Source: Dehalococcoidales bacterium (GTDB taxonomy: Bacteria; Chloroflexota; Dehalococcoidia; Dehalococcoidales; UBA5627). From it: a stretch of 64,000 nucleotides of DNA. Positions 3,403-64,000 of the stretch are shown here, piece after piece. Under the pieces are notes generated by a model. That model was not told the DNA's origin. It did not search any database and was given only the letters and a program-made list of their open reading frames with translations. The DNA is taken from assembly GCA_041656115.1 (NCBI GenBank), contig JBBAED010000004.1, forward strand, positions 10,186 through 74,185. Reading direction: 5' to 3'. The translations under genes were made by a program, and so were the position numbers. Each line of letters begins with the position of its first letter. The stretch's first letter is position 1.

Positions 3403-4755
3403 TTAAAGCTGCAGTAATTTTTCCAAAGGTTCCTCTCGGCTGATAGGGCCCACAACCGCTAATTTCAGAAGGTCGGCGGCCATTAACTCGTTAGCAATTT
3501 GCCAAACATCTTCCGTGGTAACCGCATCTATTTGAGCCACCACATCGCTAACGCCAAGGATATTGTTACTTAAGATTTCCTGAGTCCCCAGCCAGCTTGC
3601 CATATTACGATTATCTTCCAGCCGCAAAAGAAGCCTGCCTTTGGCCATTTCCTTAGCCTTGGTAAGCTCCTCTTGTGAAACCTTGTTTTTCTTGAAATCG
3701 GCCATTTGATCCGTAATAACCTCAATAGCAAGCGGTAACTTTTGCGGCTCAACCCCGGCATAGACAACCAAAGACCCCGTATCGGATAAATGCTCGGCGT
3801 AACTGGCAATGGTATATGCCAATCCGCGCTTGTCGCGAACCTCGTTAAAAAGACGGCTGCTCATACCGCCGCCGAGAATAATATTTAAAATATCCAAATG
3901 GTAGCGTTTGCGGTCAAATCTGGATAAGCCGGGCAATGCCAGGCACAGGTGTGCCTGTTCTATTTTCCTTTTCTCAATCTTTACCGCCTCACAGTCCTTA
4001 AACTTATAGCTTTTAAACTTGTGAGAATGGTCTTTTTTATTCCATCCGCCCAGGCATCCCTTAACCGCCTCAACCGCCTCATCGTGCCCGATGTTACCGG
4101 CAATCGATACAACCGAGTTGGACGGCAGGTAACTTAAGCGCATATATTCCAAAATGTCTTCGCGCGATATTGCCGCTACCGTTTTCTTGGTTCCGGCGAC
4201 ATCACGTGCCAGAGGGCTTCCGTACCACAGGGATTTGTCAATCAGCCGGTTAACCTTTTGGTCGGGGGCATCATTGGTCATTTTGATTTCTTCAAAAATA
4301 ATTTGGCGTTCTTTTTCAATATCCGCCGGGTCAAGTTTCGCATTAAGCAGCATATCGGAAAGAACATCTAAGGCAACATCAAAGTGAGCGAAAGGAACTT
4401 TGTTCCAATATACGGTCATCTCTTTATCCGTTCCGCCGTTCAAAACACCGCCCACGCCTTCAATCGCCTCTGAAATCATTCTTGTTTCGGGGCGTTTGGC
4501 GGTTCCTCTAAAAAGCATATGTTCAATAAAATGCGAAATTCCGCCAACCTTTTCTTTTTCATAACGTGAACCCACACCGGTAAAAATACAAACGGAAACC
4601 GAATGAGACTGCGGCATATTTTCCGTAATTATTCTTAATCCGTTATCCAATACTGTTTTTTGATACAAAATGCCGCCTCCTTTTTTATTTGAGGCCATTT
4701 TATCACCGATTGGCTCAAAAGTACCAATTAAAAAGATAAAAAGACAAGAGTGCAA
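3403..4755 (-). CDS. M16-family zinc peptidase (pitrilysin/insulinase-like)
   Basis: 450-aa ORF with the inverted zinc motif HFIEHMLFRGT (HxxEH) and a long M16 core. The true start is probably the internal MASNKK (about 4698). Confidence 0.8.
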   Translation of the reverse strand: MHSCLFIFLIGTFEPIGDKMASNKKGGGILYQKTVLDNGLRIITENMPQSHSVSVCIFTGVGSRYEKEKVGGISHFIEHMLFRGTAKRPETRMISEAIEGVGGVLNGGTDKEMTVYWNKVPFAHFDVALDVLSDMLLNAKLDPADIEKERQIIFEEIKMTNDAPDQKVNRLIDKSLWYGSPLARDVAGTKKTVAAISREDILEYMRLSYLPSNSVVSIAGNIGHDEAVEAVKGCLGGWNKKDHSHKFKSYKFKDCEAVKIEKRKIEQAHLCLALPGLSRFDRKRYHLDILNIILGGGMSSRLFNEVRDKRGLAYTIASYAEHLSDTGSLVVYAGVEPQKLPLAIEVITDQMADFKKNKVSQEELTKAKEMAKGRLLLRLEDNRNMASWLGTQEILSNNILGVSDVVAQIDAVTTEDVWQIANELMAADLLKLAVVGPISREEPLEKLLQL

Positions 4756-4916
4756 TGGGCGGGTTAAATCCGACGCGATAATTAAATTTCGGATTAAAAT
4801 CTATTGACAACGGAAGGCAACAGGACTAATATCGATAAGGACAAATTGTTAAAAATAGGCTGCGGTGCCAACGGGATTTGTCCGGATAAAATTGCAAAAA
4901 TAATACTTAAAAAGGG

Positions 4917-5690: not shown

Positions 5691-5879
5691 CTGGCTTACC
5701 CTAAAGTTTTGCTCTTACTTTTCTCTTGTAGATTTTTTGATTGCCTTGCTGCCTTTAAAGCCCTTCCGCCCAAACTCAATGTCCGTTTCTTTTACATAAC
5801 ACTTTCAAATAGTTTGATAGTTTATGACGTTACCCTTGCAACTCTGAGCGCCCTCTTTTTGTTATTCCGCGCCCCCCTC

Positions 5880-6425
5880 TGTCGTTCTGAGCGTAAGCGA
5901 AGAATCTAGGGGCTAGCGGATAGTGCAGCGTTCGGTTACGGGTTTTACGTTAGAGCGATTCCTCTTTCATGATTCTGAGGCAACCTCATAGTCCAAATTC
6001 CCCGTCCTCCTAGATCCTTCATTTCATTCAGGATGACAAACCACTCGTTCGCCCTGAGCCTGTCGAAGGGTCCAACGAACGGGTGGTCTAAGGGTTACTA
6101 TTCGTCTGCCGTTATGGTTCGACAAGCTCACCACGAACGGCTGGGGGGCCCTCCTTTTGTCATTCTGAGCGTAAGCGGAGAATCTAGGAGTTGGCGGATA
6201 GCGCACCGTTCGGTAACGGATTTTATGGTAGGACGATGCCTCTTTCCTATTGCCAAAGATACCTAATAGCCTGTATCTCTCATCCTCTTAGATCCTTCAT
6301 TTCATTCAGGATGACAAAAATAGTAACGTCTTTGCGAGGAGCGAGCCGTTAAGCGAGCGACGCGGCAATCTCTAAGGAATTTAATTTATATTAGATTGCT
6401 TCGCTGCGCTCGCAAAGACAAAAAG
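5880..6425. repeat. nest of MITE-like intergenic repeats (families A, B, C) #1
   Basis: Contains GTCATTCTGAGC...TTCAGGATGACAAA units, a CGTTCGCCCTGAGCCTGTCGAA...TTCGACAAGCTCACCACGAACGG unit and a GTCTTTGCGAGG...CTCGCAAAGAC unit. All recur at six other loci in the window. Confidence 0.85.
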
Positions 6426-6528
6426 AGAGTGCTCTGAAAGACAAGAGAGAACAAGAAATCTATTTGATGAACAACACCTGGCAAAATCAATATTGACAGG
6501 AATATCCGAGGATTGCAGTAAACTTTTT

Positions 6529-8338: not shown

Positions 8339-8773
8339 TTATTTTGCTTTCTTTTCGGAAACAAAGGGTTTTTTCCACCACGGAATTTTAGGAGTGGTCA
8401 ACAGTTTTAATTGCTCTATCTGGCTTTCCAGATTACGAATACGTTCCGTTGCGATACCGAGCTGAGCGGCCATGCTGACGTTCTTTTCCTGAAGCTCTCG
8501 TAAAAGACTTATACTTTGCACCAGTGCCTCGCCGGGGTCATAGTTTGCCATCTGGGAAAGAACTTTTTCCGATTCATCGGATTCGGGGGTTTCTTCGGCA
8601 GGGCTTAAATCCGAAGGTAATTCCAAAATACGATACTCCTGACCGAACTGTCCTGTAATCAGCTCGGCCTGAATCCTTCCGGACTTAATGTAACGCCTGA
8701 TGGTTCTGGTGGATACCCCCAGCGCCTCGGCAGCTTCGTTAATGTTCATATTTTCAAATACACCCATTGACAA
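8339..8773 (-). CDS. excisionase/MerR-like helix-turn-helix DNA-binding protein with coiled-coil tail
   Basis: NINEAAEALGVSTRTIRRYIKSGRI matches the excisionase-family HTH. The C-terminal half is heptad-rich (LRELQEKNVSMAAQLGIATERIRNLESQIEQL). The real start is probably an internal Met (8767 or 8749). Confidence 0.7.
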   Translation of the reverse strand: MSMGVFENMNINEAAEALGVSTRTIRRYIKSGRIQAELITGQFGQEYRILELPSDLSPAEETPESDESEKVLSQMANYDPGEALVQSISLLRELQEKNVSMAAQLGIATERIRNLESQIEQLKLLTTPKIPWWKKPFVSEKKAK

Positions 8774-8886
8774 GTCTATAGTTATTTTTCTTTTTTGTCA
8801 ATGGGGTAAAGCACCATTATAAACACCGAGGCCGGACAAATCTCTATGATCAGTCCGGCCTCTAGGTTTTTCTTGTTTCCGTGAAA

Positions 8887-9030
8887 CTACTGTGCTTTAC
8901 CAATTTTGAACATCTTGGTGGCACAAACAGGACATACGCCCTGGGTTGCCGGGCGGCCGTTTTTCATGGTTATCGCTTTGGCATCTTTCATTTCTCTTTT
9001 CTCGCGACACTTCATACAATAGCCTTGCAT
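8887..9030 (-). CDS. small zinc-ribbon protein, DUF5679-like (47 aa)
   Basis: Minus-strand ORF MQGYCMKCREKREMKDAKAITMKNGRPATQGVCPVCATKMFKIGKAQ with strong RBS AGGGAGG. Two CxxC pairs. It is below the 60-aa cutoff of the ORF track. Confidence 0.55.
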   Translation of the reverse strand: MQGYCMKCREKREMKDAKAITMKNGRPATQGVCPVCATKMFKIGKAQ

Positions 9031-21364: not shown

Positions 21365-21719
21365 TGGTGGAGACGGGGGAGAATCGAACTCCCCGTCCAA
21401 TAAAGACTGTCCTGAATATACTACAGGTTTAGTTAGCAGATTAAGCTCACCTTACCGGCCTCTGCTAACCGAGTTCGGTAAGGCCAGCCGATGGATCTTT
21501 CGTTACTCGTATCGGCATTCGGTTAACGGCACCCCGACATCTCGACACCCAATCCCTACCCGCCGGGGTGAGGTAGAGTTGGATGCGCTAGCTGTTTTTA
21601 GCCAGCGAGAACCATTTCAGGTTCGCCATTTATGTTTTTGCCACCTTTTTAATGAGAGCTGCGACAATCTCAACCTGCAATCCAGTAACTAACCTTTACT
21701 GTCGAAACCTTGCGTCCCC
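21365..21719 (-). ncRNA. ssrA: tmRNA (SsrA)
   Basis: The minus strand begins GGGGACGCAAGGTTTCGAC and ends GGGGAGTTCGATTCTCCCCCGTCTCCACCA (tRNA-like domain with CCA). The internal tag reading frame GGC GAA CCU GAA AUG GUU CUC GCU GGC UAA follows a GGCAAAAACAUAAAU leader. Adjacent to smpB. Confidence 0.85.
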
Positions 21720-30814: not shown

Positions 30815-31310
30815 GTGATGAGCCTGTTGGATGGTTCAAGGGACGAGAACAAAAGAGGATTGCCATCCGTCCGCCGTTATGGTTCGACAGGCTCACCACG
30901 AACGGCTAAACCCCTGTCTTTGCGAGCGCAGCAAAGCAATCCTTCACTGTCTTTCAGAGCGAAGCGAAGAATCTCATATAGATTAAATTCCTTGGAGATT
31001 GCCACGTCACTCGCACAAGGCTCGCTCCTCGCAAAGACGTTTTTATTATTGTCATTCTGAGCTTGTCGAAGAATCTGGGAGTTAGCGAATAGTGCAGCGT
31101 TCGGTAACGAATTTTAGAGTAGGACGCCGCCTCTTTTTTGTTGCCGAGGCGACCTCATAGCCTATACTTCCCTTCCTCTTAGATCCTTCACTGCGTTCAG
31201 GATGACAAAAGTGATGTCTTTGCGAGCGCAGCGAAGCAATCTCATATAAATTCGTGTGAGATTGCCACGTCATTCGCCTAAAAGCTCCTTCCTCGCAAAG
31301 ACGGTGTAAC
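30815..31310. repeat. nest of MITE-like intergenic repeats (families A, B, C) #2
   Basis: Family-C fragment, two B-like hairpin units and one complete family-A unit (GTCATTCTGAGCTTGTCGAAG…GTTCAGGATGACAAAA). Confidence 0.85.
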
Positions 31311-31543
31311 CCTCTGCAACAATGCACCGGATTGATGTACACTATCAGGGGTGTTCTTTTAGGAGCAATTGCGATAGTTATCAACGTTAGTTTAATAATA
31401 TACGGAATATTTAGATTAATCGTCGGTGGCGGTATTATTTAGGCGGAAGTCACAAAATTTCGTAAAAAACCATTCGATTAGTATTCTATATCCGACCGTA
31501 TCGGTGTATAATTAACCGAGGAGCAACTTTAGGAGGGATAGAA

Positions 31544-32458: not shown

Positions 32459-32544
32459 TTTTAAAAGTTTATGACATTAAGCCACGTCTTGTTCCATCGA
32501 GGCGTGGCTTTTTTGTTTCCTTTTGTCTTTCAGGGCACTTCCTT

Positions 32545-32705
32545 TGTCATTCTGAGCTTGTCGAAGAATCTAGGGGTTAGCGAATAGTGCAGTGTTTGGT
32601 TACGGATTTTACGGTAGGGCGATGCCTCTTTCTTGTTCCCGAGAATGACTCATAGCCTAAATTTCCCGTCCTCTTAGATCCTTCACTGCGTTCAGGATGA
32701 CAAAT
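32545..32705. repeat. single complete family-A MITE-like element
   Basis: TTTGTCATTCTGAGC … GTTCAGGATGACAAA, about 160 bp with imperfect 15-bp terminal inverted repeats. It lies ~140 bp upstream of the large surface-protein gene. Confidence 0.85.
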
Positions 32706-32843
32706 GAAGAAAAAGCAAGATGACAAGGGAAAAAACAAGGCGACAAGGGGGAAAATACAGGAAATCAGCAAAAATCTCATACAGACCAAAGCCCTTACCC
32801 GTTCATTTTGACCCGCCAATAATTTATGTTATAAAATAGCCGA

Positions 32844-38241: not shown

Positions 38242-39080
38242 AAATTACCGCTCCCGCTAAAATAAATTTGACACTTGAGGTGCTTGCCAAGCGCAGCGAC
38301 GGTTATCACGAGATTAAAAGTGTTATTCAGGCAATTGATTTATGCGATACCTTGTCCTTTGAAAAAGGAGAGGGTCTTAATATAACGTGTGACGACCCGA
38401 ATTGGGAGAAAGAAAAAAGCCTGATTTTCAAAGCGGTAAACTTGCTTGCAGACGATTTGGATAGGCCTTTGGAGTGTAAAATTCACCTAAGTAAACGGAT
38501 CCCTTTACTTTCGGGGCTTGCCGGTGATTCCTCCGGCGCGGTAGCCGTGCTTAAAGGCTTGAATACCTTTTTGAATTTGGGCTATACAACCGAAAGGCTG
38601 GCAGGCCTGGCGGCCAAACTTGGCTCGGATACCACTTTTTTCTTATCGGGAGGCTCGGCCCTGATGCAAGGGCGGGGAGAAATCGTTGAACCCCTTCCTC
38701 CAATGCCTCCGACATGGGTCGTTTTAATGTTACCTCAAACAGAACGCGTAATCGGTAAAACCGCTAAAATGTACTCCGCTCTGAGAACGGATTTATTTAC
38801 CGCAGGAGAAAAAACTGATGCGCTTGTTGCCAGGCTGAAACGCGGCGAAGATATCGATAATGATATGCTTTATAACGTTTTTGAATATGTGGCGTATGAT
38901 ATTTATGAAGGGCTTGGAGTCCTGCGCGATGAATTTTTAAGTGCCGGAGCTCTGACCGTTCACCTTGCCGGCTCGGGGCCTTCTCTTTTTGCTTTGGTTG
39001 ATAGTGAAACGAATGCCCTTCGAATTTGTGAAAGGCTCAAAGCAAAAGGGTATTCAGCTTTTGCCTTAAAGACTCTTTGA
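38235..39080 (+). CDS. ispE: 4-diphosphocytidyl-2-C-methyl-D-erythritol kinase
   Basis: APAKINLTLEV N-terminus and the GHMP-kinase glycine motif PLLSGLAGDSSGA. Overlaps rsmA by 7 nt. Confidence 0.85.
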   Translation: MLKITAPAKINLTLEVLAKRSDGYHEIKSVIQAIDLCDTLSFEKGEGLNITCDDPNWEKEKSLIFKAVNLLADDLDRPLECKIHLSKRIPLLSGLAGDSSGAVAVLKGLNTFLNLGYTTERLAGLAAKLGSDTTFFLSGGSALMQGRGEIVEPLPPMPPTWVVLMLPQTERVIGKTAKMYSALRTDLFTAGEKTDALVARLKRGEDIDNDMLYNVFEYVAYDIYEGLGVLRDEFLSAGALTVHLAGSGPSLFALVDSETNALRICERLKAKGYSAFALKTL

Positions 39081-39084
39081 CGCA

Positions 39085-39880
39085 ACATTGAAGCCGTTTT
39101 ATCCCTCTTTAGCCGTTCGTAGGACCCTTAACGGGTCCCTCTTGTCATCCTGAATGTAATGAAGGATCTAAGAGGAAGGGAAGTATAGGCTATGAGGTCG
39201 CCTCAGAATCACGAAAGAGGAATCGCCCTACTGTATAAACAGTAACCAAACGCTGCACTATTCGCCAACCCTTAGATTCTTCGACAGACTCAGAATAACA
39301 AGTTATAAACGTCTTTGCGAGGAATAAGCCGTTAGGCGAACGACGTGGCAATCTCCTACAAATAGAATGCCTCTCGATTTATTAAGGATTACTTCGCTGC
39401 GCTCGCAAAGACAAGGTGCTTCTCAGCCGTTCGTGGTGAGCCTGTCGAACCATAACGGCGGCCGGATGGTAATCCTTGTCTACTCTCGTTCGTGGAACCC
39501 TTCGACAAGCTCAGGGCGAACGAGTCTTTTTTATCATCCTGTTTCCCTATTTTGTCATCCTGAACAGAGTGAAGGATCTAAGAGGACGAGAAGTATAGGC
39601 TATGAGTCATTCTCGGGAACAAGAAAGAGGCTTCGTCCTATTATAAATCCGCAACCGAACAGTGCACTATCCGCCAACTCCTAGATTCTTCGGCAAGCTC
39701 AGACCCTTCGACAGGCTCAGGGTGCTCGGAATTTGGATTGTCTTTGCGAGGAATGAGCGTAAGCGAACGACGTGGCAATCTCCAAGGAATTTAATCTATA
39801 TGAGATTCTTCGCTTCGCTCTGAAAGACAGTGGAGTTTATTTATTAGAGATTGCTTCGCTTACGCTCGCAAAGACAAAGA
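39085..39880. repeat. nest of MITE-like intergenic repeats (families A, B, C) #4, the largest at ~0.8 kb
   Basis: Order: reverse A unit, B unit, C unit (GCCGTTCGTGGTGAGCCTGTCGAACC…GGAACCCTTCGACAAGCTCAGGGCGAACGAG), second reverse A unit, two further B-type hairpins. Confidence 0.85.
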
Positions 39881-40001
39881 GAATTGCTTTAAATATATTC
39901 TAAAAGCTTAAAAATACATCGTTAAGTTATTCATTATTCAATTTCTTTGTGATACAATCAGGTGGTCGGCATTCCGCATTGGGAAATAAAATAGGGATTA
40001 T

Positions 40002-40730
40002 TTGATGAACTCGTCTATCGTTATTGAGAATCTTACCAAGTATTACGATGACTTTCTGGCATTGGATAATCTGTCGCTTACAATAGAGGGTAACGAAAAT
40101 ATCGGATTTTTAGGGCCCAACGGAGCCGGTAAAAGCACCACTTTAAAGATTTTATGCGGTCTTCTGCGCCCAACCTCCGGTAAAGCCTACATAAACGGTT
40201 TTAATATCGCTTCCGAGAAAGAAAAGGTCCTCTCCCAAATCGGTACAATTATTGAAACCACCGAATTTTACGGTTATTTAACCCCTGCGGAAACATTAAG
40301 CTACCTCGGTAAACTGCGCGGTATGAGTAGCGATGATTTACGTCGGCGTATCCCCCAAGTTATTGAAATGGTAAATCTGGAAAAGTGGCTTAATATTAAA
40401 ATCGAAAAGTTTTCACGCGGTATGAAGCAGCGCTTGGCTTTAGCGCAAACCTTACTGCACGACCCGCCGATTCTTATCTTTGATGAACCGGCTTTAGGTT
40501 TAGACCCCAGGGCGGTGATTGAATTTAGGCGAATAATTATCGAAGCCGGAAAAGATAAAACTGTCTTTTTTGCCTCTCACCAATTAAGCGAAGTCGCTCA
40601 AATATGCAAACACGTCGCGATTATAGACCGCGGCAAACTGCTCGGTTACGACGCTATCGAAAACTTGGAGCGCGATTACGGCTCTTTAGAGAATGCCTAT
40701 CTCGAGTTAACGGGGGTTCCGAGTGAGTGA
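40002..40730 (+). CDS. ABC transporter ATP-binding protein
   Basis: Walker A GPNGAGKST, signature FSRGMKQR, Walker B ILIFDEPALGLD. Confidence 0.85.
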   Translation: MMNSSIVIENLTKYYDDFLALDNLSLTIEGNENIGFLGPNGAGKSTTLKILCGLLRPTSGKAYINGFNIASEKEKVLSQIGTIIETTEFYGYLTPAETLSYLGKLRGMSSDDLRRRIPQVIEMVNLEKWLNIKIEKFSRGMKQRLALAQTLLHDPPILIFDEPALGLDPRAVIEFRRIIIEAGKDKTVFFASHQLSEVAQICKHVAIIDRGKLLGYDAIENLERDYGSLENAYLELTGVPSE

Positions 40731-46414: not shown

Positions 46415-46600
46415 GGGTCTTTAACCGTCTTTGTGAGGAATGAGCCTTTAGGCGAGTGACGTGGCAATCTCCTACAGATTTATTAGAGATTGCTTCGCTG
46501 CGCTCGCAAAGACAAGGAGGATTGCTTTGCTACTCTCGCGAATACAAAGGTGGTTGCCTCACCTTCCCTGCGGGAATGGTTCTGCAAAGACAAAGAGCAC
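46415..46600. repeat. MITE-like repeat nest #5 (family B hairpin plus a short GGAATGG hairpin module)
   Basis: GTCTTTGTGAGGAATGAGCC…GACGTGGCAATCTC…GAGATTGCTTCGCTGCGCTCGCAAAGACA, then CCTTCCCTGCGGGAATGGTTCTGCAAAGACA. Confidence 0.8.
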
Positions 46601-50779: not shown

Positions 50780-50829
50780 GCGCATTATTTAAAAGAAGAT
50801 TTTATGAGGCCTCCATTGATTGGGGGTCT

Positions 50830-51385
50830 CATGTTATAAACCCGTTACCAAACGCTGCACTATGCGCCAACTCCCAGATTCTTCGACAGGCTCAGAATGA
50901 CATTACCGTCTTTGCGAGGAGTGAGTCGTCAGGCGAGTGACGTGGCAATCTCATACAGATTTATTAGAGATTGCTTCGCTGCGCTCGCAAAGACAAGGGT
51001 TTAGCCGTTCGTGGGACCCTTCGACAGGCTCAGGGCGAACGGGTCTTTTTTGTTATCCTGTTTTTCCCCCCTTGTCGTCCTGAACGTAGTGAAGGATCTA
51101 GGAGGATAGAAAATACAGGCTATGAGGTCGCCTCGGCAACAAATACGGGGCATCGTCCATACGCGATTTACTAACCTAACACTGCGCTATTCGCTAACCC
51201 CTAGATTCTTCGGCAAGTTCAGGGTGCTCGGAATTTGAATTGTCTTTGCGAGGAATAAGCCGTCAGGCGAGTGACGTGGCAATCTCTAAGGAATTTAATC
51301 TGTACGAGATTCTTCGCTTCGCTCGCAAAGACAGAGGAGGATTGCTTTGCCTTCCCTTCGGGAATGGTCTCGCAAAGACAAATAT
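50830..51385. repeat. nest of MITE-like intergenic repeats (families A, B, C) #6
   Basis: Reverse A fragment, B unit, C unit, A unit (TTGTCGTCCTGAACGTAGTGAAGGATCTAGGAGGA…), second B unit and the CCTTCCCTTCGGGAATGGTCTCGCAAAGACA module. Confidence 0.85.
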
Positions 51386-55254: not shown

Positions 55255-55285
55255 GCGCCGAATCAGAAAAGATTAATAGGTTTTT

Positions 55286-55320
55286 ACCTCTTAATGTGGG
55301 AATGTTTTTTTGTGTATAAT
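55286..55320 (+). promoter_or_regulatory. promoter module copy A (ACCTCTTAATGTGGGAATGTTTT…GTGTATAAT)
   Basis: Extended -10-like GTGTATAAT 30 nt upstream of the 55351 start codon. Near-identical to copy B at 57438..57471. Confidence 0.4.
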
Positions 55321-55864: not shown

Positions 55865-55897
55865 AAAAAAAGTAGCAGCGACTGGAATTGAACCGGT
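55865..55897 (-). repeat. partial duplicate of the 3' end of tRNA-Met (T-arm plus acceptor 3' strand plus U-tract), putative att repeat
   Basis: AAAAAAGTAGCAGCGACTGGAATTGAACCGGT is identical over ~30 nt to the 3' end of the intact tRNA at 58070..58141, then diverges. Confidence 0.6.
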
Positions 55898-56073
55898 AAC
55901 TAAGAGTTTATAAGTTGCGGTCTCATATTTAACTTCCCTTGCTTAACAAATAGTTTTTTAGAGAGCCTGTTATATATTTCAAAAATAAAAGATACACAAA
56001 ATGGCTTTAACGGGGTTATTTTTGCAGTATAGTGCGTTTGGGAGTGGTATAATTAACATTGAGAGGTGGGAAT

Positions 56074-57177: not shown

Positions 57178-57437
57178 CGCCTCATTTATATATGTAATTA
57201 CGATTTTGAATATATTCGGCGCTATTTCTAACATTGTAGACTGAGCAATTCGCCTAGCCCCGTCTAATAACCAAGACGGAGAATTAAAACCCTGCTCCTG
57301 TTATCCTCGGCCTTATGAGAGGGTAGAAATTAGTCAATCGCCTGTTTTGTAATAGTTTTAGACATCGAGGCCATTCTTCTTCTCATTTAGTTGCGAGAGA
57401 TGATAGCCTCGAACTACTCGAAGGTCAATAGCTTTTC

Positions 57438-57471
57438 ACCTCTTAATGTGGGAATGTTTTGGGTGTATAAT
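57438..57471 (+). promoter_or_regulatory. promoter module copy B
   Basis: ACCTCTTAATGTGGGAATGTTTTGGGTGTATAAT, 32 nt upstream of the 57504 start codon. Differs from copy A at only ~3 positions. Confidence 0.4.
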
Positions 57472-57503: not shown

Positions 57504-58064
57504 ATGGGTAAAATAAAAGAACGAACAAATGCTGAAAGAGAAAATGTTGTTAAACCTTTAAAGAAATGGTTAGAGTCACAGAATACAAAGTGGGAGACCT
57601 ATATGCCGCCACATCCCACATCAAAGGGCTGGGATTTAGAGGCTAGTAGGCCAAATTGCGACTTGTTAATAGAAGCTAAATATATTCAACGGTCCTTTAT
57701 TGCTTCATTTTCTTATTTGGTAACTTCTCCATTACCAGACCGTAAACAATATTTTGCAGTCAGAAAACCTAAAAAATGGTGTGCACACCATTGTTGGGCT
57801 ATAGGATCATCAAATTATAAAACAAGAGAACTTTACCAGTTGATATTTGATTATCTAATACGTTGTCCAACTTTTTGGAGACATTATAAAGAAGATTTGG
57901 GTATGAAATATGTATACTTTGTGATAAATGGAAAGGTAGCCAAAGTCGATTTTGGTAAATTATTAGATTATTCTGAAACTTATAAAAAAAATACTGCTGA
58001 AAAGACAACGGAGGGAAAAAGAGCTATAGCTGAAGATCTAATGAAAAATGTTAAGTACACATAA
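57504..58064 (+). CDS. hypothetical PD-(D/E)xK-like nuclease-fold protein
   Basis: 186 aa. GWDLEA …(14 aa)… CDLLIEAKY gives a D…ExK arrangement with typical spacing. AT-rich. The gene ends 4 nt before the tRNA-Met 3' end. Confidence 0.45.
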   Translation: MGKIKERTNAERENVVKPLKKWLESQNTKWETYMPPHPTSKGWDLEASRPNCDLLIEAKYIQRSFIASFSYLVTSPLPDRKQYFAVRKPKKWCAHHCWAIGSSNYKTRELYQLIFDYLIRCPTFWRHYKEDLGMKYVYFVINGKVAKVDFGKLLDYSETYKKNTAEKTTEGKRAIAEDLMKNVKYT

Positions 58065-58069
58065 AAAAG

Positions 58070-58141
58070 TAGCAGCGACTGGAATTGAACCAGTGACCAA
58101 GGGCTTATGAGTCCCCTGCTCTACCTCTGAGCTACGCTGCC
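58070..58141 (-). tRNA. tRNA-Met or tRNA-Ile2 (CAU anticodon), no encoded CCA
   Basis: Minus strand GGCAGCGUAGCUCAGAGGUAGAGCAGGGGACUCAUAAGCCCUUGGUCACUGGUUCAAUUCCAGUCGCUGCUA. Cloverleaf with anticodon loop CUCAUAA and an unusual A:G at the loop-closing pair. Confidence 0.75.
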
Positions 58142-60700: not shown

Positions 60701-60714
60701 CACAGCTCTCAACC

Positions 60715-61412
60715 GTCTTTGCGAGGAACGAGCCCTTGGGCGAATGACGTGGCAATCTCACTCTTGTCATCCTGCTTTTCCCCTTTTTGTCATCCTGAAC
60801 GCAGTGAAGGATCTAAGAGGACGAGAAATACAGGCTATGAGGCGTCTTCGGCAAGCTCAGAATAACAAGTTATAAACGTCTTTGCGAGGAGCGAGCCGTC
60901 AGGCAAGTGACGTGGCAATCTCCAAGAAATTGATCTATATGAGATTCTTCGCTTCGCTCTGAAAGACAGAGGAGGATTGCTTCGCTGCGCTCGCAAAGAC
61001 AATGGGTTAGCCGTTCGTGGTGAAGGATCTAAGAGGACGGGGAATATAAGCTGTTAGGTTGCCTCGGCAATAAAGAAGAGGCATCGTCCTACCGTAAAAT
61101 TTGCAACCGAACGTTGCATTATCCGCTAACTCCCAGATTCTTCGACAAGCTCAGAATGACACTACTGTCTTTGCGAGGAACGAGCCGTTAGGCGAGTGAC
61201 GTGGCAATCTCATACGGATTTAATTTTTTAGAGATTGCTTCGCCTTCCCTACGGGAATGGTCTCGCAAAAACAAGGTGGGTTGCTTCGCTGCGCTCGCAA
61301 AGACAATGGTTTAGCCGTTCGTGGTGAGCCTGTCGAACCATAACGGCGGTCGAATAGTAATCCTTATCTACTCCCGTTCGTTGGACCCTTCAACAAGCTC
61401 AGAATGACACTA
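60715..61412. repeat. nest of MITE-like intergenic repeats (families A, B, C) #7
   Basis: B unit, A unit, B unit, reverse A unit, B-type hairpins and a C unit, ending 4 nt before the dnaE stop codon. Confidence 0.85.
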
Positions 61413-61415
61413 CTC

Positions 61416-64000
61416 TTAATCATCATCGGTGCTGATTCTTTCTTCACCTACCTTATCAGCCAATCGCGACATCAACTTAGACGATATCCCGATATGCATA
61501 TGGGGCATTTTTACGGTAAACACTTTTGTGCCGTTATCAATAACGATAATGACGGAATCGTCGCCGGGGTAATCGTTTAAGATATCCATCACATCGCGTA
61601 ATTGTTTTACATCGCCGGCCTCGTCCCCCGACTGCTTAAGCTTAACAGTCAGACGGCGTTTTTGACCGGATGCTTTTGTCGTTTCTTCAGTAGCTTTTGA
61701 CGGCTCAAAAAAATCAGGTGCCACTACTTTTTTCGCCAATGTCTTGTCCTCCAGGTTATAAATACGTACGTGGTCGCATACCAGTTGAGGGCTATCACCC
61801 CTAACTTTAACTTTACCGTCCACTAAAAGAATGTTTCCTTCCAACCATAGGTCTCGGGTAGAAGCAAAAACGCGCGACCAAGCCATAACTTCCAGTTTGC
61901 CGTTCAAATCTTCAAGCACTACGCTGGCCGATACCTTCCCTTCTCTGCTCACAATATTACGAACGGAAGAAACCATGCCCGCCACTACCACCGTTTGCCC
62001 TTCCATTTCTTCGGTTACCTCTCCGCAAAGCATCGTATTTTCCACCATTGCTTTCTCAGCAAAGGGGCTAAACGGATGCTCGGAAAGATAAACCCCCAAG
62101 AGTTCTTTTTCCCAATCCAGTATTTCTTTACGCGAAACTTCTATTTTTTCCAATTCAAGTGTTGCCAAAGGAACATTAACGGTGTCGCCCCAAAGGTCAA
62201 ACATAGTTGATTGTCCGCTGTCTTTCAATTGCTGTTCACGCTGAGCGGCCGACATTATAACCCCAATGTTACCTAAAAGGGTACCTCGTTCGCCGAACGA
62301 ATCCATTGCTCCGGCTTTAATAAGGCTTTCCATAACCCTTTTATTAATTCCGCAAATATCTACCCGGCGGCACATATCTTCAATGGTTTTGTAATCGCCG
62401 TTGGCTCTTCTCTCTTCGATAATCGGTTTAACGGCGTTTACACCTACATTTTTAATGGCTTCCAAGCCGAAACGGATGGCCTGTGTTCCGTCCTCTGTGC
62501 TTTCAATCGTAAAATCCACCTCGGAACGATTGATATCGGGCGGTAATACTTTAATCCCCATCCGATGGCATTCGTCTATCGCAACGCCGATTTTTTCGGC
62601 TTGCCCGTCCGCCGCAATTAAAAGAGCGGTGAGGTATTCTATCGAAAAGTGGGCTTTAAGGTATGCCGTTTGATAGGCAATCAAGGCATAGTTTACGGCG
62701 TGTGCCTTGTTAAAGGCATAGCCGGCAAACGGTTCAATTAAGGCATAGACTTTTTCGGCAATCTCGGCGGTATAGCCGTTCTTCTCGGCGCCTTTAATGA
62801 AATTGGCTTTCTCTTTAACCATCACTTCGGCTTTTTTCTTACCCATTGCCTTGCGGAAGATATCCGCCTGCCCCAAGCTGTAGCCGCCGAAGGCGCGCAC
62901 AATAAAAAGCACCTGTTCTTGATAAACAATAACGCCGTATGTTTCTTCCAAAAACTCTTTTAAAGCGGGGTGCGGATAGGTAATCGGCTCAATGCCGTAT
63001 TTGGAACGAATAAATTTGGGAATTTGTTCCATCGGCCCCGGGCGATAAAGGGCAACCATGGCGGCAATATCGGAAAAAACTGTTGGTTTAAGCTCTTTGA
63101 TATAACGCCGCATACCGCTGCCTTCCAATTGGAACACCCCCACGGTTTCCCCTGCCGCCAAAAGCTCAAATGTTTTGGCATCGTCCATCGGGATATTATA
63201 GCGGTCGATATCTATCCCGCGGTTTTCTTTAATAATTTGTTGCGTTCTGCCCAATGTCGTCAGGTTCGAAAGCCCCAAGAAATCCATTTTAAGCAATCCG
63301 ATTCTGGCAATATCGTCCATCGGATATTGGGTCATTACCAACCCCGAATCCGTATCACGGCTGATTCTTTGCAGCGGGATATGATTTGTAAGCGGATCTT
63401 TGGAAATTACAACACCGGCAGCGTGGGTGCTGGAATGACGCGCCACGCCTTCAACACCTTTAGCGTAATCAACCAAGTTTTTGACAGCGGGTTCGGTTTC
63501 GTAAATTGTTTTGAATTCCCCGTTTTCTTCCAGCGCTTTATTGATTGTCATCCCAACCGCAAAGGGCACCATTTTGGCAACGCGGTCAACCTCACCGTAC
63601 GCCATGCCCAAAGCACGTCCGGCATCACGAATGGCAGCTTTGGCTCCCAACGTACCGAAGGTTATAATTTGTGCAACGTGGTCTTGTCCGTATTTATGCG
63701 ATACATAGTTAATGACCTCTTCGCGGCGCTTGTCTTCAAAATCCATATCGATATCGGGCATTTCACGCCGTTCGAGATTCAAAAACCTTTCAAAAACAAG
63801 CTTATGCGGAATAGGGTCAATATCGTTAATCCTTAAACACCTCAGCACTATACTGGATGCGGCACTGCCCCTAACATTTACCAAAATACCGTTTTCACGA
63901 GTAAACTTAACAATATCCCAAACTACCAAAAAGTAGCGCGCAAATTGAGTCTTTTCGATAACATCCAGCTCATAGCGCAGCCTTTCTTCAATCTCAGGTG
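61416..64000 (-). CDS. dnaE: DNA polymerase III alpha subunit (C-terminal ~860 aa; gene continues beyond the window end)
   Basis: PHP/palm region motifs (PDIDMDF, GLLKMDFLGL), fingers, and C-terminal OB-fold domain. There is no in-window start, so the N-terminus lies beyond 64000. Confidence 0.85.
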   Translation of the reverse strand, partial: PEIEERLRYELDVIEKTQFARYFLVVWDIVKFTRENGILVNVRGSAASSIVLRCLRINDIDPIPHKLVFERFLNLERREMPDIDMDFEDKRREEVINYVSHKYGQDHVAQIITFGTLGAKAAIRDAGRALGMAYGEVDRVAKMVPFAVGMTINKALEENGEFKTIYETEPAVKNLVDYAKGVEGVARHSSTHAAGVVISKDPLTNHIPLQRISRDTDSGLVMTQYPMDDIARIGLLKMDFLGLSNLTTLGRTQQIIKENRGIDIDRYNIPMDDAKTFELLAAGETVGVFQLEGSGMRRYIKELKPTVFSDIAAMVALYRPGPMEQIPKFIRSKYGIEPITYPHPALKEFLEETYGVIVYQEQVLFIVRAFGGYSLGQADIFRKAMGKKKAEVMVKEKANFIKGAEKNGYTAEIAEKVYALIEPFAGYAFNKAHAVNYALIAYQTAYLKAHFSIEYLTALLIAADGQAEKIGVAIDECHRMGIKVLPPDINRSEVDFTIESTEDGTQAIRFGLEAIKNVGVNAVKPIIEERRANGDYKTIEDMCRRVDICGINKRVMESLIKAGAMDSFGERGTLLGNIGVIMSAAQREQQLKDSGQSTMFDLWGDTVNVPLATLELEKIEVSRKEILDWEKELLGVYLSEHPFSPFAEKAMVENTMLCGEVTEEMEGQTVVVAGMVSSVRNIVSREGKVSASVVLEDLNGKLEVMAWSRVFASTRDLWLEGNILLVDGKVKVRGDSPQLVCDHVRIYNLEDKTLAKKVVAPDFFEPSKATEETTKASGQKRRLTVKLKQSGDEAGDVKQLRDVMDILNDYPGDDSVIIVIDNGTKVFTVKMPHMHIGISSKLMSRLADKVGEERISTDDD

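What the first reader, a model, noticed from the sequence alone, without database searches (positions are those of the whole stretch)
39085..39880. Seven repeat nests (~3.4 kb, ~5% of the window) in which three MITE-like families pile into the same intergenic sites
The nests are at 5880-6425, 30815-31310, 32545-32705, 39085-39880, 46415-46600, 50830-51385 and 60715-61412. In each, A, B and C units abut or interrupt one another in varying order and orientation, so they are not one composite element. This density and nesting suggest preferential insertion into existing copies, for example if the repeats themselves form the target structure. Both giant surface-protein genes are flanked by nests (32545 upstream of the first, 46415 upstream and 50830 downstream of the second), as is the dnaE 3' end. 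That would make them candidate hotspots for recombination or cassette exchange of surface proteins.
Basis: partly seen in the sequence, partly recalled or inferred. Interest (0 to 1): 0.6.

Follow-up and report, generated by a model that had tools for sequence, protein, structure and literature searches.

The report
Ssn-type hairpin repeat arrays
The seven repeat 'nests' are real, but they are ordered arrays of small hairpin-ended repeats like the Neisseria dRS3/NTS mosaic arrays, and in related genomes they enclose genes for small Ssn-like single-strand DNA nucleases, so they are a new variant of a recently explained repeat system rather than piles of independent MITEs.

Summary
Self-comparison of the window finds repeats in exactly the seven intervals named (about 3.5 kb, 5.5%). 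The window is from a Dehalococcoidales (Chloroflexota) MAG.

The three 'families' share one building block: a hairpin tagged YGTC, with a 5-bp stem, tandem G·A pairs, a 2-bp stem and a 3-4 nt loop. A, B and C are each inverted doublets of such hairpins.

220 of 235 units are co-oriented within their nest, and B is followed by A in 41 of 53 cases. Units show no target-site duplication and no clear nested interruption.

The exact B-end hairpin occurs in about 20 phyla. Every small GIY-YIG (Ssn-like) gene examined is flanked by such hairpins. In a relative carrying the same A/B/C families, two such genes sit inside nests, one of them inside a B unit.

The closest known systems are Neisseria NIME/dRS3-NTS arrays with the SsnA nuclease (Nat Commun 2025) and CGTC-tagged REPs. 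The published Ssn-motif search pattern finds none of these hairpins.

No ssn gene lies in this 64-kb window. How the arrays grow, and what they do, remains inferred. Verdict: a new variant of a known kind, of moderate interest.

The parts
5854..6436 (.). Nest 1, between the tRNA cluster and a 137-aa ORF. Units: B(-) C(-) B(-) A(+).
   Evidence: Self-blastn; nhmmer unit map.
5879..6040 (-). B unit (full length).
   Evidence: nhmmer 165.6 bits; TGTC hairpins at 5881-5905(+) and 6014-6037(-).
6053..6142 (-). C unit (full length).
   Evidence: nhmmer 92.2 bits.
6157..6319 (-). B unit (full length).
   Evidence: nhmmer 165.2 bits.
6327..6420 (+). A unit (full length). It is the only unit in the window that is not co-oriented with its nest.
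   Evidence: nhmmer 97.7 bits.
30819..31305 (.). Nest 2, in the divergent region between the YjeF-like gene (-) and the Band_7 gene (+). Read on the - strand: A B A a C.
30819..30909 (-). C unit.
   Evidence: nhmmer 93.3 bits.
30915..30943 (-). Extra A right arm (a single hairpin).
   Evidence: nhmmer, profile positions 66-94.
30948..31039 (-). A unit.
   Evidence: nhmmer 89.9 bits.
31049..31210 (-). B unit.
   Evidence: nhmmer 177 bits; hairpins at 31051-31074 and 31183-31206.
31215..31303 (-). A unit.
   Evidence: nhmmer 87.3 bits.
32518..32727 (.). Nest 3, upstream of the 1009-aa BNR/sortilin-like gene. It holds a single B(-) at 32544-32704 with degenerate end-like flanks.
   Evidence: The orthologous site is also occupied in L003 and L005.
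32544..32704 (-). B unit.
   Evidence: nhmmer 177.6 bits.
39085..39890 (.). Nest 4 (the finding's own interval), between ispE (+) and an ABC-transporter gene (+). Units: c-fragment, B A C B c-fragment A a, all on the + strand.
39110..39139 (+). Short C-like hairpin fragment.
   Evidence: Sequence inspection.
39140..39301 (+). B unit 1. Left TGTC hairpin at 39142-39171; right hairpin at 39272-39301, with its tag mutated to TGTT.
   Evidence: nhmmer 166.9 bits.
39310..39413 (+). A unit (subtype 2). Long left arm 39310-39356 starting CGTC; right arm 39386-39413.
   Evidence: nhmmer 86 bits.
39424..39527 (+). C unit. Hairpin 1 at 39425-39460 and hairpin 2 at 39485-39524, followed by a T-run at 39525-39551 (terminator-like on the + strand).
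   Evidence: nhmmer 100.3 bits; DNA fold -19.4 kcal/mol, z = -2.3.
39550..39704 (+). B unit 2. Left hairpin at 39552-39581; right hairpin truncated at 39702.
   Evidence: nhmmer 161.4 bits.
39703..39729 (+). Fragment of C hairpin 2, fused to the truncated B.
   Evidence: (family D14).
39739..39829 (+). A unit (subtype 1). Left arm 39739-39783; right arm 39802-39829.
   Evidence: nhmmer 86.5 bits.
39835..39876 (+). Extra A right arm.
   Evidence: nhmmer, profile positions 54-94.
46422..46594 (.). Nest 5, upstream of the 1312-aa giant gene. It holds A(+) at 46426-46514 plus two extra arm-like hairpins up to 46594.
   Evidence: D11. In relative L277 an ssn gene lies upstream of the homologous giant gene.
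46426..46514 (+). A unit (subtype 2).
   Evidence: nhmmer 88.3 bits; DNA fold -16.4 kcal/mol, z = -3.2.
50834..51382 (.). Nest 6, in the convergent region downstream of the giant gene. Units: b A c B A plus an arm, all on the + strand. Colinear with nest 4.
50804..50902 (+). B unit, right part only (profile positions 54-162).
50907..50995 (+). A unit (subtype 2).
51002..51050 (+). Short C variant, with a deletion between the two CGTTCGTGG repeats, followed by a T-run.
   Evidence: (D13).
51071..51225 (+). B unit.
   Evidence: nhmmer 151.4 bits.
51242..51381 (+). A unit (subtype 1, 51242-51333) plus an extra arm-like hairpin (51340-51381).
   Evidence: D11.
60711..61427 (.). Nest 7, in the convergent region between a nitroreductase gene and the dnaE 3' end. 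Units: a b A a B A a C, all on the + strand.
60714..60760 (+). A left arm only.
   Evidence: profile positions 1-47.
60785..60870 (+). B unit with an internal deletion: the left ~70 nt are joined to the right end.
60877..61001 (+). A unit (60877-60968) plus an extra right arm (60974-61001).
61003..61161 (+). Chimera: the start of C (AGCCGTTCGTGGTGA) fused at a shared GTGA to B profile positions 18-162.
   Evidence: (D4, D8).
61167..61305 (+). A unit (61167-61271) plus an extra right arm (61278-61305).
61311..61403 (+). C unit.
   Evidence: nhmmer 101.8 bits.

Best explanation
The nests are intergenic mosaic arrays of hairpin repeats. They are of the same kind as the Neisseria dRS3/NTS arrays (NIMEs) and the CGTC-tagged REPs.

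The elementary module is a roughly 27-nt strand-asymmetric hairpin: a YGTC tag, a 5-bp stem that usually starts A-T, T-A, a tandem G·A/A·G pair, a 2-bp stem, a 3-4 nt loop (often GNA), and then a CT tail. A, B and C are each an inverted doublet of such hairpins with the tags facing outward. They differ in stem sequence and in the spacer between the hairpins (about 15, 110 and 35 nt).

The units are chained in one orientation and in a preferred order, (a)B-A-(C).

The cognate protein is inferred to be a roughly 95-aa single-domain GIY-YIG nuclease of the Ssn type. In Neisseria, SsnA binds the hairpin on single-stranded DNA and cuts just 5' of it. In a relative carrying the same A/B/C families, two such genes lie inside nests, and one lies inside a B unit. 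B is therefore most simply a gene-less, MITE-like derivative of a hairpin-ssn-hairpin cassette.

Shown here: the anatomy, the covariation, the order and orientation rules, the cross-phylum spread, and the physical linkage of ssn-like genes with these hairpins.

Inferred: that an Ssn-like enzyme of this genome recognises or cuts these hairpins; that arrays grow by hairpin-directed joining or copying of blocks between arrays rather than by local duplication; and that their effect is on single-stranded DNA transactions (incoming DNA, recombination) with side effects on transcript ends.
For: Module:
- A scan for the tagged hairpin gives 14 hits, 13 of them in nests, against 0.3 expected.
- Both ends of B, both halves of C and the arms of A are versions of the module.
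- Covariation was counted on 88 distinct hairpins collected by loop sequence only. Cells paired: 84.8% against 69.7% in shuffles. Double changes: 101 against 29. Reached in 0 of 500 shuffles, and all 7 pairs show compensatory changes.
- In the cross-phylum sample the third stem pair is C-G 158, T-A 150, mismatched 7.

Arrays:
- Orientation and order statistics are, colinearity.
- The B->A junction keeps a conserved spacer in many copies.
- Nests are enriched at convergent gene ends: 15 of 44 against 40 of 240 junctions.

Spread:
It also hit the limit in viral contigs.
- Tags-outward doublets predominate (22 of 40).

Protein link:
- L261, a relative with the same families, has ssn-1 (2503-2790) flanked by A units.
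- In L261, ssn-2 (4558-4845) has B-internal sequence on one side by inspection and the last 58 nt of B at 95% identity on the other.
- Both are PF01541 GIY-YIG.
- The relative GCA_964399425.1 has an ssn-1 orthologue (78% identity) next to its giant surface-protein gene, flanked by tagged hairpins.
- All Ssn-like genes inspected are flanked by YGTC tandem-G·A hairpins: L236, L193 (isolate Hymenobacter glaciei), L272/274/276, L280/281 (isolate Thermodesulfovibrio aggregans), L282/283 (Microcoleus) and L284/285. L278 is flanked by YGTC-tagged hairpins that lack the tandem G·A.
- The L200 homologue, 56% identical to ssn-2, is flanked by canonical NTS-like hairpins that match the published SRM pattern.

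Literature:
- NTS/SRM-Ssn biochemistry and the NTS-ssnA-NTS layout: PMC11893778.
- NIME architecture: PMC1797815.
- CGTC/TGTC-tagged REPs with stems starting A-T, head-to-head dimers and no known transposase: PMC3733652.
Against: - No GIY-YIG ORF exists in the 64-kb window, and I could not reach the rest of this MAG. The presence of an ssn gene in this genome is therefore assumed from relatives.
- The published SRM search pattern finds 0 hits in the window, so these hairpins fall outside the motif as defined.
- No biochemistry exists for this variant.
- Which Ssn pairs with which hairpin type is unclear. The ssn-1 orthologue in L277 is flanked by a different TGTC variant, not by A arms.
- C hairpins lack the YGTC tag.
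- Nearest-neighbour DNA folding gives the isolated 5-bp hairpins only -0.8 to -2.2 kcal/mol, no better than shuffles. The model does not include sheared G·A or GNA-loop bonuses, so structural support rests on covariation. Because the sequences are related, covariation can be inflated.
- Copies are 69-93% identical, so there is no sign of recent activity.
- Assignment of the proteins to cd10448, rather than another small GIY-YIG family, was not testable here. The closest solved structures are UPF0213 proteins at E = 2e-8.
Confidence: 0.72

Rival explanations
1. One reading: three independent MITE families, mobilised in trans by ordinary transposases, insert preferentially into one another because the repeats form the target structure.
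For: - The units have inverted termini and MITE-like sizes.
- Clustering is extreme compared with random placement.
- No unit's nearest relative is in its own nest, so units or blocks arrived from elsewhere rather than by local duplication.
- Truncated units occur at junctions.
Against: - Fifty full B units show no target-site duplication beyond chance.
- No unit is split into two halves by another unit.
- Orientation is uniform within nests and the order is fixed. Independent insertions would not produce that.
- The three families share one hairpin module with covarying stems.
- No transposase was found in the window or near hairpins in about 2 Mb of sampled loci.
- The linked gene is a GIY-YIG nuclease.
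Confidence: 0.08
2. A REP/REPIN-BIME system mobilised by a RAYT (an IS200/IS605-type Y1 transposase), as in E. coli and Pseudomonas.
For: - The architecture is the same: hairpins in alternating orientation separated by conserved linkers, inverted doublets, and no target-site duplication.
- Arrays sit preferentially at gene 3' ends and convergent junctions.
- PMC3733652 describes exactly such properties.
Against: - The tag is YGTC, not GTAG.
- CGTC-type REPs were reported to lack an associated RAYT.
- In every locus inspected, the gene flanked by the hairpins is a GIY-YIG nuclease.
- I did not run a dedicated Y1-transposase search, so a RAYT elsewhere in the genome is not excluded.
Confidence: 0.07
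3. The arrays are mainly RNA-level elements, such as transcription terminators, mRNA-stabilising 3' structures or small RNAs. On this view their spread reflects selection for that role.
For: - C hairpin 2 followed by a T-run looks like an intrinsic terminator in nests 4 and 6 (39485-39551 and 51006-51063; D13, 8, 84).
- Nests are enriched at convergent gene ends.
- Whole A and C units fold better than shuffles (z = -3.2 and -2.3).
Against: - There is no orientation bias relative to flanking tandem genes (14 same, 10 opposite).
- Rfam gives no match.
- Whole-nest RNA folding is only z = -2.3.
- The GNA loops and tandem G·A fit known stable DNA mini-hairpins (my own knowledge of the d(GCGNAGC) literature, not tested here).
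- The homologous Neisseria protein ignores RNA (PMC11893778).
- This role could coexist with the main explanation.
Confidence: 0.1

Closest known systems
Neisseria intergenic mosaic elements (NIMEs: dRS3/NTS hairpins separating RS units) with the SsnA GIY-YIG single-strand nuclease (PMC1797815; PMC11893778)
   Same: - The hairpin layout matches: NTS is CGTC-AT-TCCCGCG-loop-CGCGGGA-AT-CY; here it is TGTC-AT-YCTGAGC-loop-GCGAAGR-AT-CT.
- Hairpins flank 15-150 nt spacer units.
- Units are chained into intergenic arrays.
- Arrays at syntenic sites differ between relatives.
- Arrays lie beside surface-protein genes.
- A roughly 95-aa single-domain GIY-YIG gene is flanked by the hairpins.
   Different: - The stem contains a conserved tandem G·A and different stem sequences, so the published SRM pattern finds none of them.
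- The host is Chloroflexota (Dehalococcoidales).
- There are only three spacer-unit families, in a fixed order and one orientation, instead of more than 100 RS families.
- One unit (B) is visibly a gene-less version of the ssn cassette.
- No biochemical or transformation data exist for this variant.
CGTC-tagged REPs (Di Nocera et al. 2013, PMC3733652)
   Same: - The tag is CGTC or TGTC at one end.
- The stem is about 9 positions and starts A-T, T-A.
- There is a short unpaired tail.
- Tags-outward (head-to-head) dimers predominate.
- Elements sit between convergent and unidirectional genes.
- No transposase is associated.
   Different: - That survey reported 5 phyla, not including Chloroflexi, for CGTC repeats.
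- Loops there are 4-5 nt and tails mostly CCA. Here loops are 3-4 nt, tails are CT, and the stem has a tandem G·A.
- Here the hairpins are embedded in three longer unit families arranged in ordered arrays.
E. coli BIMEs and Pseudomonas REPINs with RAYT transposases
   Same: These are mosaics of alternating-orientation palindromic units with conserved linkers. The inverted doublet is the replicative unit, they lack target-site duplications, they are extragenic, and a single-copy domesticated enzyme gene is flanked by its own repeats.
   Different: The tag is GTAG and the enzyme is a Y1 HUH transposase. Here the tag is YGTC and the linked enzyme is a GIY-YIG nuclease.
Bacterial MITEs (for example Correia elements, Nezha)
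   Same: They are of similar size with inverted termini. B relates to a gene-carrying cassette as a MITE relates to its parent element.
   Different: These units have no target-site duplication, no DDE transposase parent, and an ordered array arrangement rather than dispersed single insertions.

Membership tests
Ssn / SRM (NTS) system (PMC11893778) | A strand-asymmetric hairpin repeat: an HGTC tag, a palindrome whose first stem pairs are W-Y...R-N, and a C-Y tail. | tested here: met
   In loop-anchored hairpins the tag is TGTC in 350 of 386 and CGTC in 9. Stems are ATYCT/AGRAT and the tail is CT. A arms start CGTC. C hairpins lack the tag.
Ssn / SRM (NTS) system (PMC11893778) | A match to the published degenerate SRM search pattern HGTCWYN(0-2)YYVSBRHN(0-5)WNVSBRGN(0-2)RNCYNB. 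| tested here: not met
   There are 0 hits in the window, against 0.2 in shuffles. The positive controls match: the NTS consensus and many L200 hairpins. The tandem G·A in the stem breaks the pattern.
Ssn / SRM (NTS) system (PMC11893778) | A small (about 94 aa) single-domain GIY-YIG gene flanked by the repeats. | tested here: inconclusive
   Met in relatives with the same families (L261 ssn-1 and ssn-2; L277) and in all other loci inspected.
Ssn / SRM (NTS) system (PMC11893778) | [quoted passage not shown] | not testable with these tools
   Pfam gives only PF01541 and NCBIfam gives nothing specific. The link is indirect: ssn-2 is 56% identical to the L200 protein, whose flanks match the published SRM pattern.
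Ssn / SRM (NTS) system (PMC11893778) | Single-strand-specific, strand-specific cleavage just 5' of the hairpin. | not testable with these tools
   Needs purified protein and oligonucleotide assays.
NIME arrays (PMC1797815) | Short inverted-repeat hairpins flanking 50-150 bp repeat units, clustered into intergenic arrays. | tested here: met
   The unit map is and hairpin positions. Arrays are 170-800 bp. Spacers are about 15 nt (A), 110 nt (B) and 35 nt (C).
NIME arrays (PMC1797815) | The hairpin is dRS3 (ATTCCC-N8-GGGAAT). | tested here: not met
   Stems here are ATCCT/AGGAT, ATTCT/AGAAT, TTGC/GCAA, CCCT/AGGG and TGGT/ACCA. The literal dRS3 motif is not the module.
NIME arrays (PMC1797815) | Syntenic arrays differ in content between relatives, and flanking genes are more divergent or are surface proteins. 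| tested here: inconclusive
   The site upstream of the BNR gene is occupied in the window, L003 and L005 with different content. The BNR protein is 54-56% identical, against 63-82% for its neighbours. Giant-gene adjacency is p about 0.005 in the window (post hoc) but p = 0.14 in relatives.
CGTC-tagged REPs (PMC3733652) | A CGTC/TGTC tag, an 8-9 bp stem starting A-T, T-A, a 4-5 nt loop, a short tail, and head-to-head dimers. | tested here: met
   Tag and stem start. The stem has 9 positions if the tandem G·A is counted. Loops are 3-4 nt (slightly shorter). The tail is CT rather than CCA. Tags-outward doublets number 22 of 40.
MITE | Target-site duplication flanking each copy. | tested here: not met
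   For 50 full B units the flanking direct repeats equal the permuted expectation.
MITE | The unit is a deletion derivative of an autonomous element that shares its ends. | tested here: inconclusive
   B's right 58 nt (95% identity) and an internal B segment seen by inspection flank ssn-2 in L261. The parent encodes a nuclease, not a known transposase, and its left end is missing in that copy.
REP/REPIN-RAYT, BIME | A GTAG tag on the hairpin. | tested here: not met
   The tag is YGTC.
REP/REPIN-RAYT, BIME | A Y1 (IS200/IS605-like) RAYT gene flanked by the repeats. | not tested
   No dedicated Y1 search was run. Clustering of ORFs near hairpins found no recurrent transposase-like family.

The most novel reading that the evidence does not exclude
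The hairpin-ssn-hairpin cassettes may be a distinct class of GIY-YIG-based mobile or domesticated elements, with gene-less derivatives such as B. On this reading the Ssn nuclease itself drives hairpin-directed copying or joining of repeat blocks on single-stranded DNA. That would make Ssn the long-missing mobilising enzyme of CGTC/TGTC-tagged REPs. It would also explain both the ordered arrays and the spread of one 27-nt hairpin, with 67-84% identical nucleases, across about 20 phyla.
Probability: 0.25. Interest if true: 0.8.

Novelty: new variant of a known kind. Interest (0 to 1): 0.5.

Why it matters
The Ssn nucleases and their hairpin motifs were described only in 2025, mostly from Proteobacteria.

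This locus shows a tandem-G·A hairpin class that the published search pattern misses. That class is nevertheless linked to Ssn-like genes in Chloroflexota, Nitrospirota, Cyanobacteria and Bacteroidota, and it occurs in about 20 phyla.

In Dehalococcoidales the hairpins build NIME-like arrays covering 5-9% of the sampled DNA, with strict order and orientation. One unit looks like a gene-less ssn cassette. Together these give concrete substrates and enzyme pairs for testing how such arrays form.

There is also a practical consequence. These arrays break short-read assemblies: a Logan contig ends inside nest 4. They also generate spurious ORF calls in MAG annotations.

Tried and rejected
- Rfam gave no family in any nest, neither at gathering thresholds on the whole window nor at E-value thresholds on nest 4.
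- Full-text searches for the hairpin sequences as strings returned only unrelated papers that happen to contain short matching strings.
- I clustered ORFs of at least 100 aa within 1.5 kb of hairpins in 240 cross-phylum loci and small ORFs within 250 nt. No recurrent transposase appeared, only proteins of one group of related phage contigs and spurious ORFs read through the hairpins.
- My first GIY-YIG regular expression was too strict and found nothing. A looser one worked.
- Strain-level presence/absence could not be tested. The only near-identical sequence is a 2.5-kb Logan contig that stops 87 nt into nest 4. The nearest relatives are about 64% identical in IspE.
- I looked for an ssn gene of this very genome. 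None is in the window. The closest ENA homologues come from other samples. No hit lay on the 239,099-bp contig.
- Searching viral contigs with the Ssn protein or alignment gave only 2 loci, so the hairpins on viral contigs are not accompanied by ssn genes.
- Local tandem duplication as the source of the arrays is rejected: 0 of 20 units have their nearest relative in the same nest.
- A CRISPR-like reading of periodic hairpins (L071, 87-nt period) was considered and not pursued.
- An integron attC reading, prompted by GTTAGGC inside A, was judged coincidental. That motif is the loop of a small internal hairpin.
- A hammerhead-like reading of CUGA...GA fails the core consensus.
Full report
**Observation.** A blastn self-comparison of the window finds repeated DNA in seven intervals: 5854-6436, 30819-31305, 32518-32727, 39136-39890, 46422-46594, 50834-51382 and 60711-61427. 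Together they cover about 3.5 kb, or 5.5% of the window. Apart from them there is only one unrelated pair of short repeats, near tRNA-Met. The repeat finder and nhmmer profiles built from the copies recover three unit types: A (~94 nt), B (~163 nt) and C (~93 nt). There are 28 units or unit fragments in all. All nests are intergenic. Random placement of 28 units among about 56 intergenic sites would occupy about 22 sites, and never as few as 7 in 100,000 trials. The existence, coordinates and density of the nests are therefore confirmed.

**Source.** IspE of the window is identical to a protein named from a 'Dehalococcoidales bacterium' MAG. The window lies on ENA contig ERZ27247346:k141_172032 (239 kb). 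The nearest relatives found have about 64% IspE identity, so no strain-level comparison was possible. A Logan contig of the same species simply ends 87 nt into nest 4.

**Anatomy.** The three families are not independent. Each end of B is a hairpin of the form TGTC / 5-bp stem (ATCCT or ATTCT) / G·A, A·G / 2 bp / 3-4 nt loop / stem / CT.
- A scan for this design gives 14 hits, 13 of them in nests, against 0.3 expected.
- The arms of A have the same design with stem TTGC/GCAA, a CGTC tag and, in the left arm, an enlarged loop.
- The two halves of C carry the same loop (GAGCYTGTCGA) on stems TGGT/ACCA and CCCT/AGGG, extended by CGTTCG/CGAACG.
- A, B and C are thus three inverted doublets of one module, with the tags outward. 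Their spacers are about 15, 110 and 35 nt.

**Covariation and folding.** I collected 88 distinct hairpins from the window and relatives by loop sequence alone. The seven proposed pairs are formed in 84.8% of cells, against 69.7% in shuffles. There are 101 double (compensatory) changes against 29. The values were reached in 0 of 500 shuffles, and the slid controls are much lower. Nearest-neighbour DNA folding does not favour the isolated 5-bp hairpins (-0.8 to -2.2 kcal/mol, no better than shuffles). Whole A and C units fold better than shuffles (z = -3.2 and -2.3). The energy model does not credit sheared G·A pairs or GNA loops, so I rest the structure on covariation and flag this weakness.

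**Order and orientation.**
- In the window, 27 of 28 units share the orientation of their nest: nests 1-3 are on the minus strand and nests 4-7 on the plus strand.
- In 43 multi-unit nests of the window plus relatives, 34 are uniform in orientation and 220 of 235 units are co-oriented.
- B is followed by A 41 times, by C 8 times and by B 4 times. C is followed by B 23 times and by A 10 times.
- Nests 4 and 6 are colinear over about 650 nt (B-A-C-B-A-a). Nest 2 is colinear with most of nest 7.
- The B-to-A junction keeps a conserved spacer in many copies.
- No unit has its closest relative in its own nest (0 of 20; identities 69-93%). The arrays are therefore not recent local duplications.
- Fifty full B units show no target-site duplication beyond chance.
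- I found truncated and chimeric units, for example the C/B fusion at 61003-61023. I found no unit split in two by another.
- Nests are enriched at convergent junctions (15 of 44 against 40 of 240). They show no orientation bias relative to flanking tandem genes (14 against 10).

**Spread of the module.** The hits come from MAGs and isolates of roughly 20 phyla: Chloroflexota including Dehalococcoidia, Nitrospirota, Acidobacteriota, Bacteroidota, Bacillota, Pseudomonadota, Cyanobacteriota, Planctomycetota, Verrucomicrobiota, Patescibacteria, Omnitrophota, Spirochaetota and others. It also reached the limit in IMG/VR contigs, always with unrelated flanks. In that sample the variable third stem pair is C-G 158, T-A 150 and mismatched 7. 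Other stems (ATGCT/AGCAT, GTCCT/AGGAC and so on) are also paired. The loops are mostly GCG-N-AGC. Tags-outward doublets predominate (22 of 40).

**Identification.** The literature gives two matches.
- Di Nocera et al. 2013 (PMC3733652) defined CGTC-tagged REPs. The tag is often TGTC, stems are 8-9 bp starting A-T, T-A, tails are short, dimers are head to head, and no dedicated transposase is known.
- PMC11893778 showed that the Neisseria dRS3 repeat is part of a 28-nt oriented hairpin, the NTS (CGTCATTCCCGCGMAVGCGGGAATCYRG). SsnA, a 94-aa single-domain GIY-YIG protein, binds this hairpin only as single-stranded DNA and cuts just upstream of it.
- The same paper showed that ssnA genes across bacteria are flanked by such 'Ssn-related motifs', and that SsnA lowers integration of NTS-bearing transforming DNA.
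- NTS/dRS3 hairpins separate RS units in the NIME arrays that cluster beside surface-protein genes (PMC1797815).

The layout of the present module is the same (HGTC, A-T, stem, loop, stem, A-T, C-Y). The published degenerate search pattern, however, finds none of them in the window, while it does find the canonical hairpins of L200.

**Link to Ssn-like genes.**
- Among the loci fetched by hairpin pattern, three small GIY-YIG ORFs were present. L236 (Chloroflexota) is flanked on both sides by TGTC hairpins with tags outward. L193 (Hymenobacter glaciei) is flanked by three hairpins. L200 (Omnitrophota) is flanked by NTS-like hairpins.
- A metagenome scan with the A-left-arm pattern retrieved 25 loci (238 kb), almost all from one JGI metagenome. 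They come from a relative with the same A/B/C families, and nests cover 9.5% of that DNA.
- In one of these loci (L261) two GIY-YIG genes (PF01541) lie inside nests. ssn-1 (2503-2790) lies between A units.
- ssn-2 (4558-4845) has, by inspection, a B-internal segment on one side and the last 58 nt of B (95% identity) on the other. B therefore looks like this cassette with the gene deleted.
- The IspE-syntenic relative GCA_964399425.1 carries an ssn-1 orthologue (78% identity) about 780 bp upstream of its giant fn3/Ig surface-protein gene, flanked by TGTC hairpins. In the window, the corresponding position upstream of the 1312-aa giant gene holds the A-only nest 5.
- Ssn-like genes chosen by protein similarity alone were inspected in Thermodesulfovibrio aggregans, Microcoleus, Caldilineales, other Dehalococcoidales and one viral contig. 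All are flanked by YGTC-tagged hairpins, with the tandem G·A design in all but the viral contig, often in small arrays.
- The proteins are 67-84% identical across phyla. Together with the shared hairpin, this suggests horizontal spread.

**What remains inferred.**
- No GIY-YIG ORF lies in the 64-kb window, and I could not reach the rest of this genome.
- Which enzyme recognises which hairpin type is open. The L277 orthologue of ssn-1 is not flanked by A arms.
- Membership of the proteins in CDD cd10448 could not be tested. The nearest solved structures are UPF0213 GIY-YIG proteins at E = 2e-8.
- The mechanism that builds ordered arrays is unknown, here as in Neisseria.
- My working model is as follows. 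The oriented hairpins are recognition sites on single-stranded DNA for an Ssn-like nuclease. Blocks such as (a)B-A-(C) are copied or recombined between arrays at hairpins. The arrays influence recombination of single-stranded DNA and incidentally provide terminator-like structures (C hairpin 2 plus T-run at 39485-39551 and 51006-51063).

**Recombination and surface proteins.**
- Compared with L005 and L003, gene order breaks at the position of nest 3 (upstream of the BNR gene) and at nest 4. In the relatives, ispE is followed by plsY, two small ORFs, cca and an AAA gene before the ABC transporter. In L003 the ABC segment is inverted.
- Repeats sit at these breakpoints in the relatives too. One indel, at the dCTP deaminase gene, has no nest.
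- Three of the four junctions beside the two giant genes carry nests (post hoc p about 0.005).
- The BNR protein is more diverged (54-56%) than its neighbours (63-82%).
- In the relative's loci the excess of ORFs of at least 800 aa beside nests is not significant (5/67 against 4/152, p = 0.14).

The recombination-hotspot idea is therefore compatible with the data and mirrors the NIME hypothesis, but it is not established. The only experimental data on the homologous system point to restriction of incoming DNA rather than promotion of exchange.

**Verdict.** The 'three MITE families nesting in each other' reading is replaced by 'ordered mosaic arrays of one tagged-hairpin module, linked to Ssn-like GIY-YIG nucleases'. 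This is a new variant of a known kind. It falls outside the published motif definition, sits in a new phylum context, follows unusually strict array grammar, and includes a visible gene-less cassette derivative.

Noticed in passing
window 55269-55320 / 57421-57471 and 55866-55915 / 58063-58112: Two pairs of ~50-nt direct repeats lie about 2.2 kb apart. The second pair overlaps the 3' end of tRNA-Met (58069-58141, - strand). The region is low in GC (37-38%), and its three ORFs (163, 372 and 186 aa) have no Pfam match. It looks like one or two small elements integrated at tRNA-Met with att-like duplications.
   Followed up: partly
window 39525-39551, 51044-51071, 60761-60786; L261 5150-5260: Upstream of B left ends there are one to three tandem 'stutter' copies of the outermost ~22 nt of B (a pyrimidine-rich run plus TTGTCATCCTG). 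They stop exactly at the stem/loop boundary. B ends also extend into C-rich and G-rich inverted runs (CCCCCC-TGTCAT...ATGACA-GGGGGG).
   Followed up: partly
window 31082-31384 (-), 39367-39684 (+); L001 2848-3039: ORFs of 100-105 aa lie wholly inside nests, and a 63-aa gene is called inside nest 2 in the public assembly. These are read-throughs of the repeats. Typical peptides such as CHPERSEGS and SFAALRMT recur across phyla, so they are spurious gene calls.
   Followed up: partly
L282/L283 (Microcoleus MAGs) 601-897: The Ssn-like GIY-YIG gene and its hairpin array sit between the hsdR and hsdM genes of a type I restriction-modification system.
   Followed up: no
L071 (IMG/VR contig) 8594-8970; L282 971-1182: Identical tagged hairpins recur at strict periods: 87 nt five times in L071, and 63 nt four times in L282. 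These are tandem arrays with a single spacer type.
   Followed up: no
L025, L028, L045, L054, L063, L068, L086, L094, L099, L102 (IMG/VR): A group of related phage-like contigs carries the TGTC hairpins in several intergenic positions but has no ssn gene. They share 4-5 conserved proteins.
   Followed up: partly
window 21365-21719 (-): A tmRNA gene (Rfam 154 bits). The tag peptide predicted by ARAGORN is GEPEMVLAG, which is short and ends unusually in LAG rather than LAA.
   Followed up: no
window 39080-40002 vs L005 10882-15336 and L003: In relatives, ispE is followed by plsY, two small ORFs, cca, an AAA_18 gene and a 133-aa ORF (about 4.4 kb) before the ABC transporter. In the window these genes are absent from this place and nest 4 sits at the junction.
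   Followed up: partly
window nests 1-3 vs nests 4-7: Array orientation switches from minus (5.8-32.7 kb) to plus (39-61 kb). This is close to the cumulative GC-skew minimum near 30 kb and to the switch of gene orientation at 31 kb. A possible replication-strand bias of the hairpins could not be tested on 64 kb.
   Followed up: no
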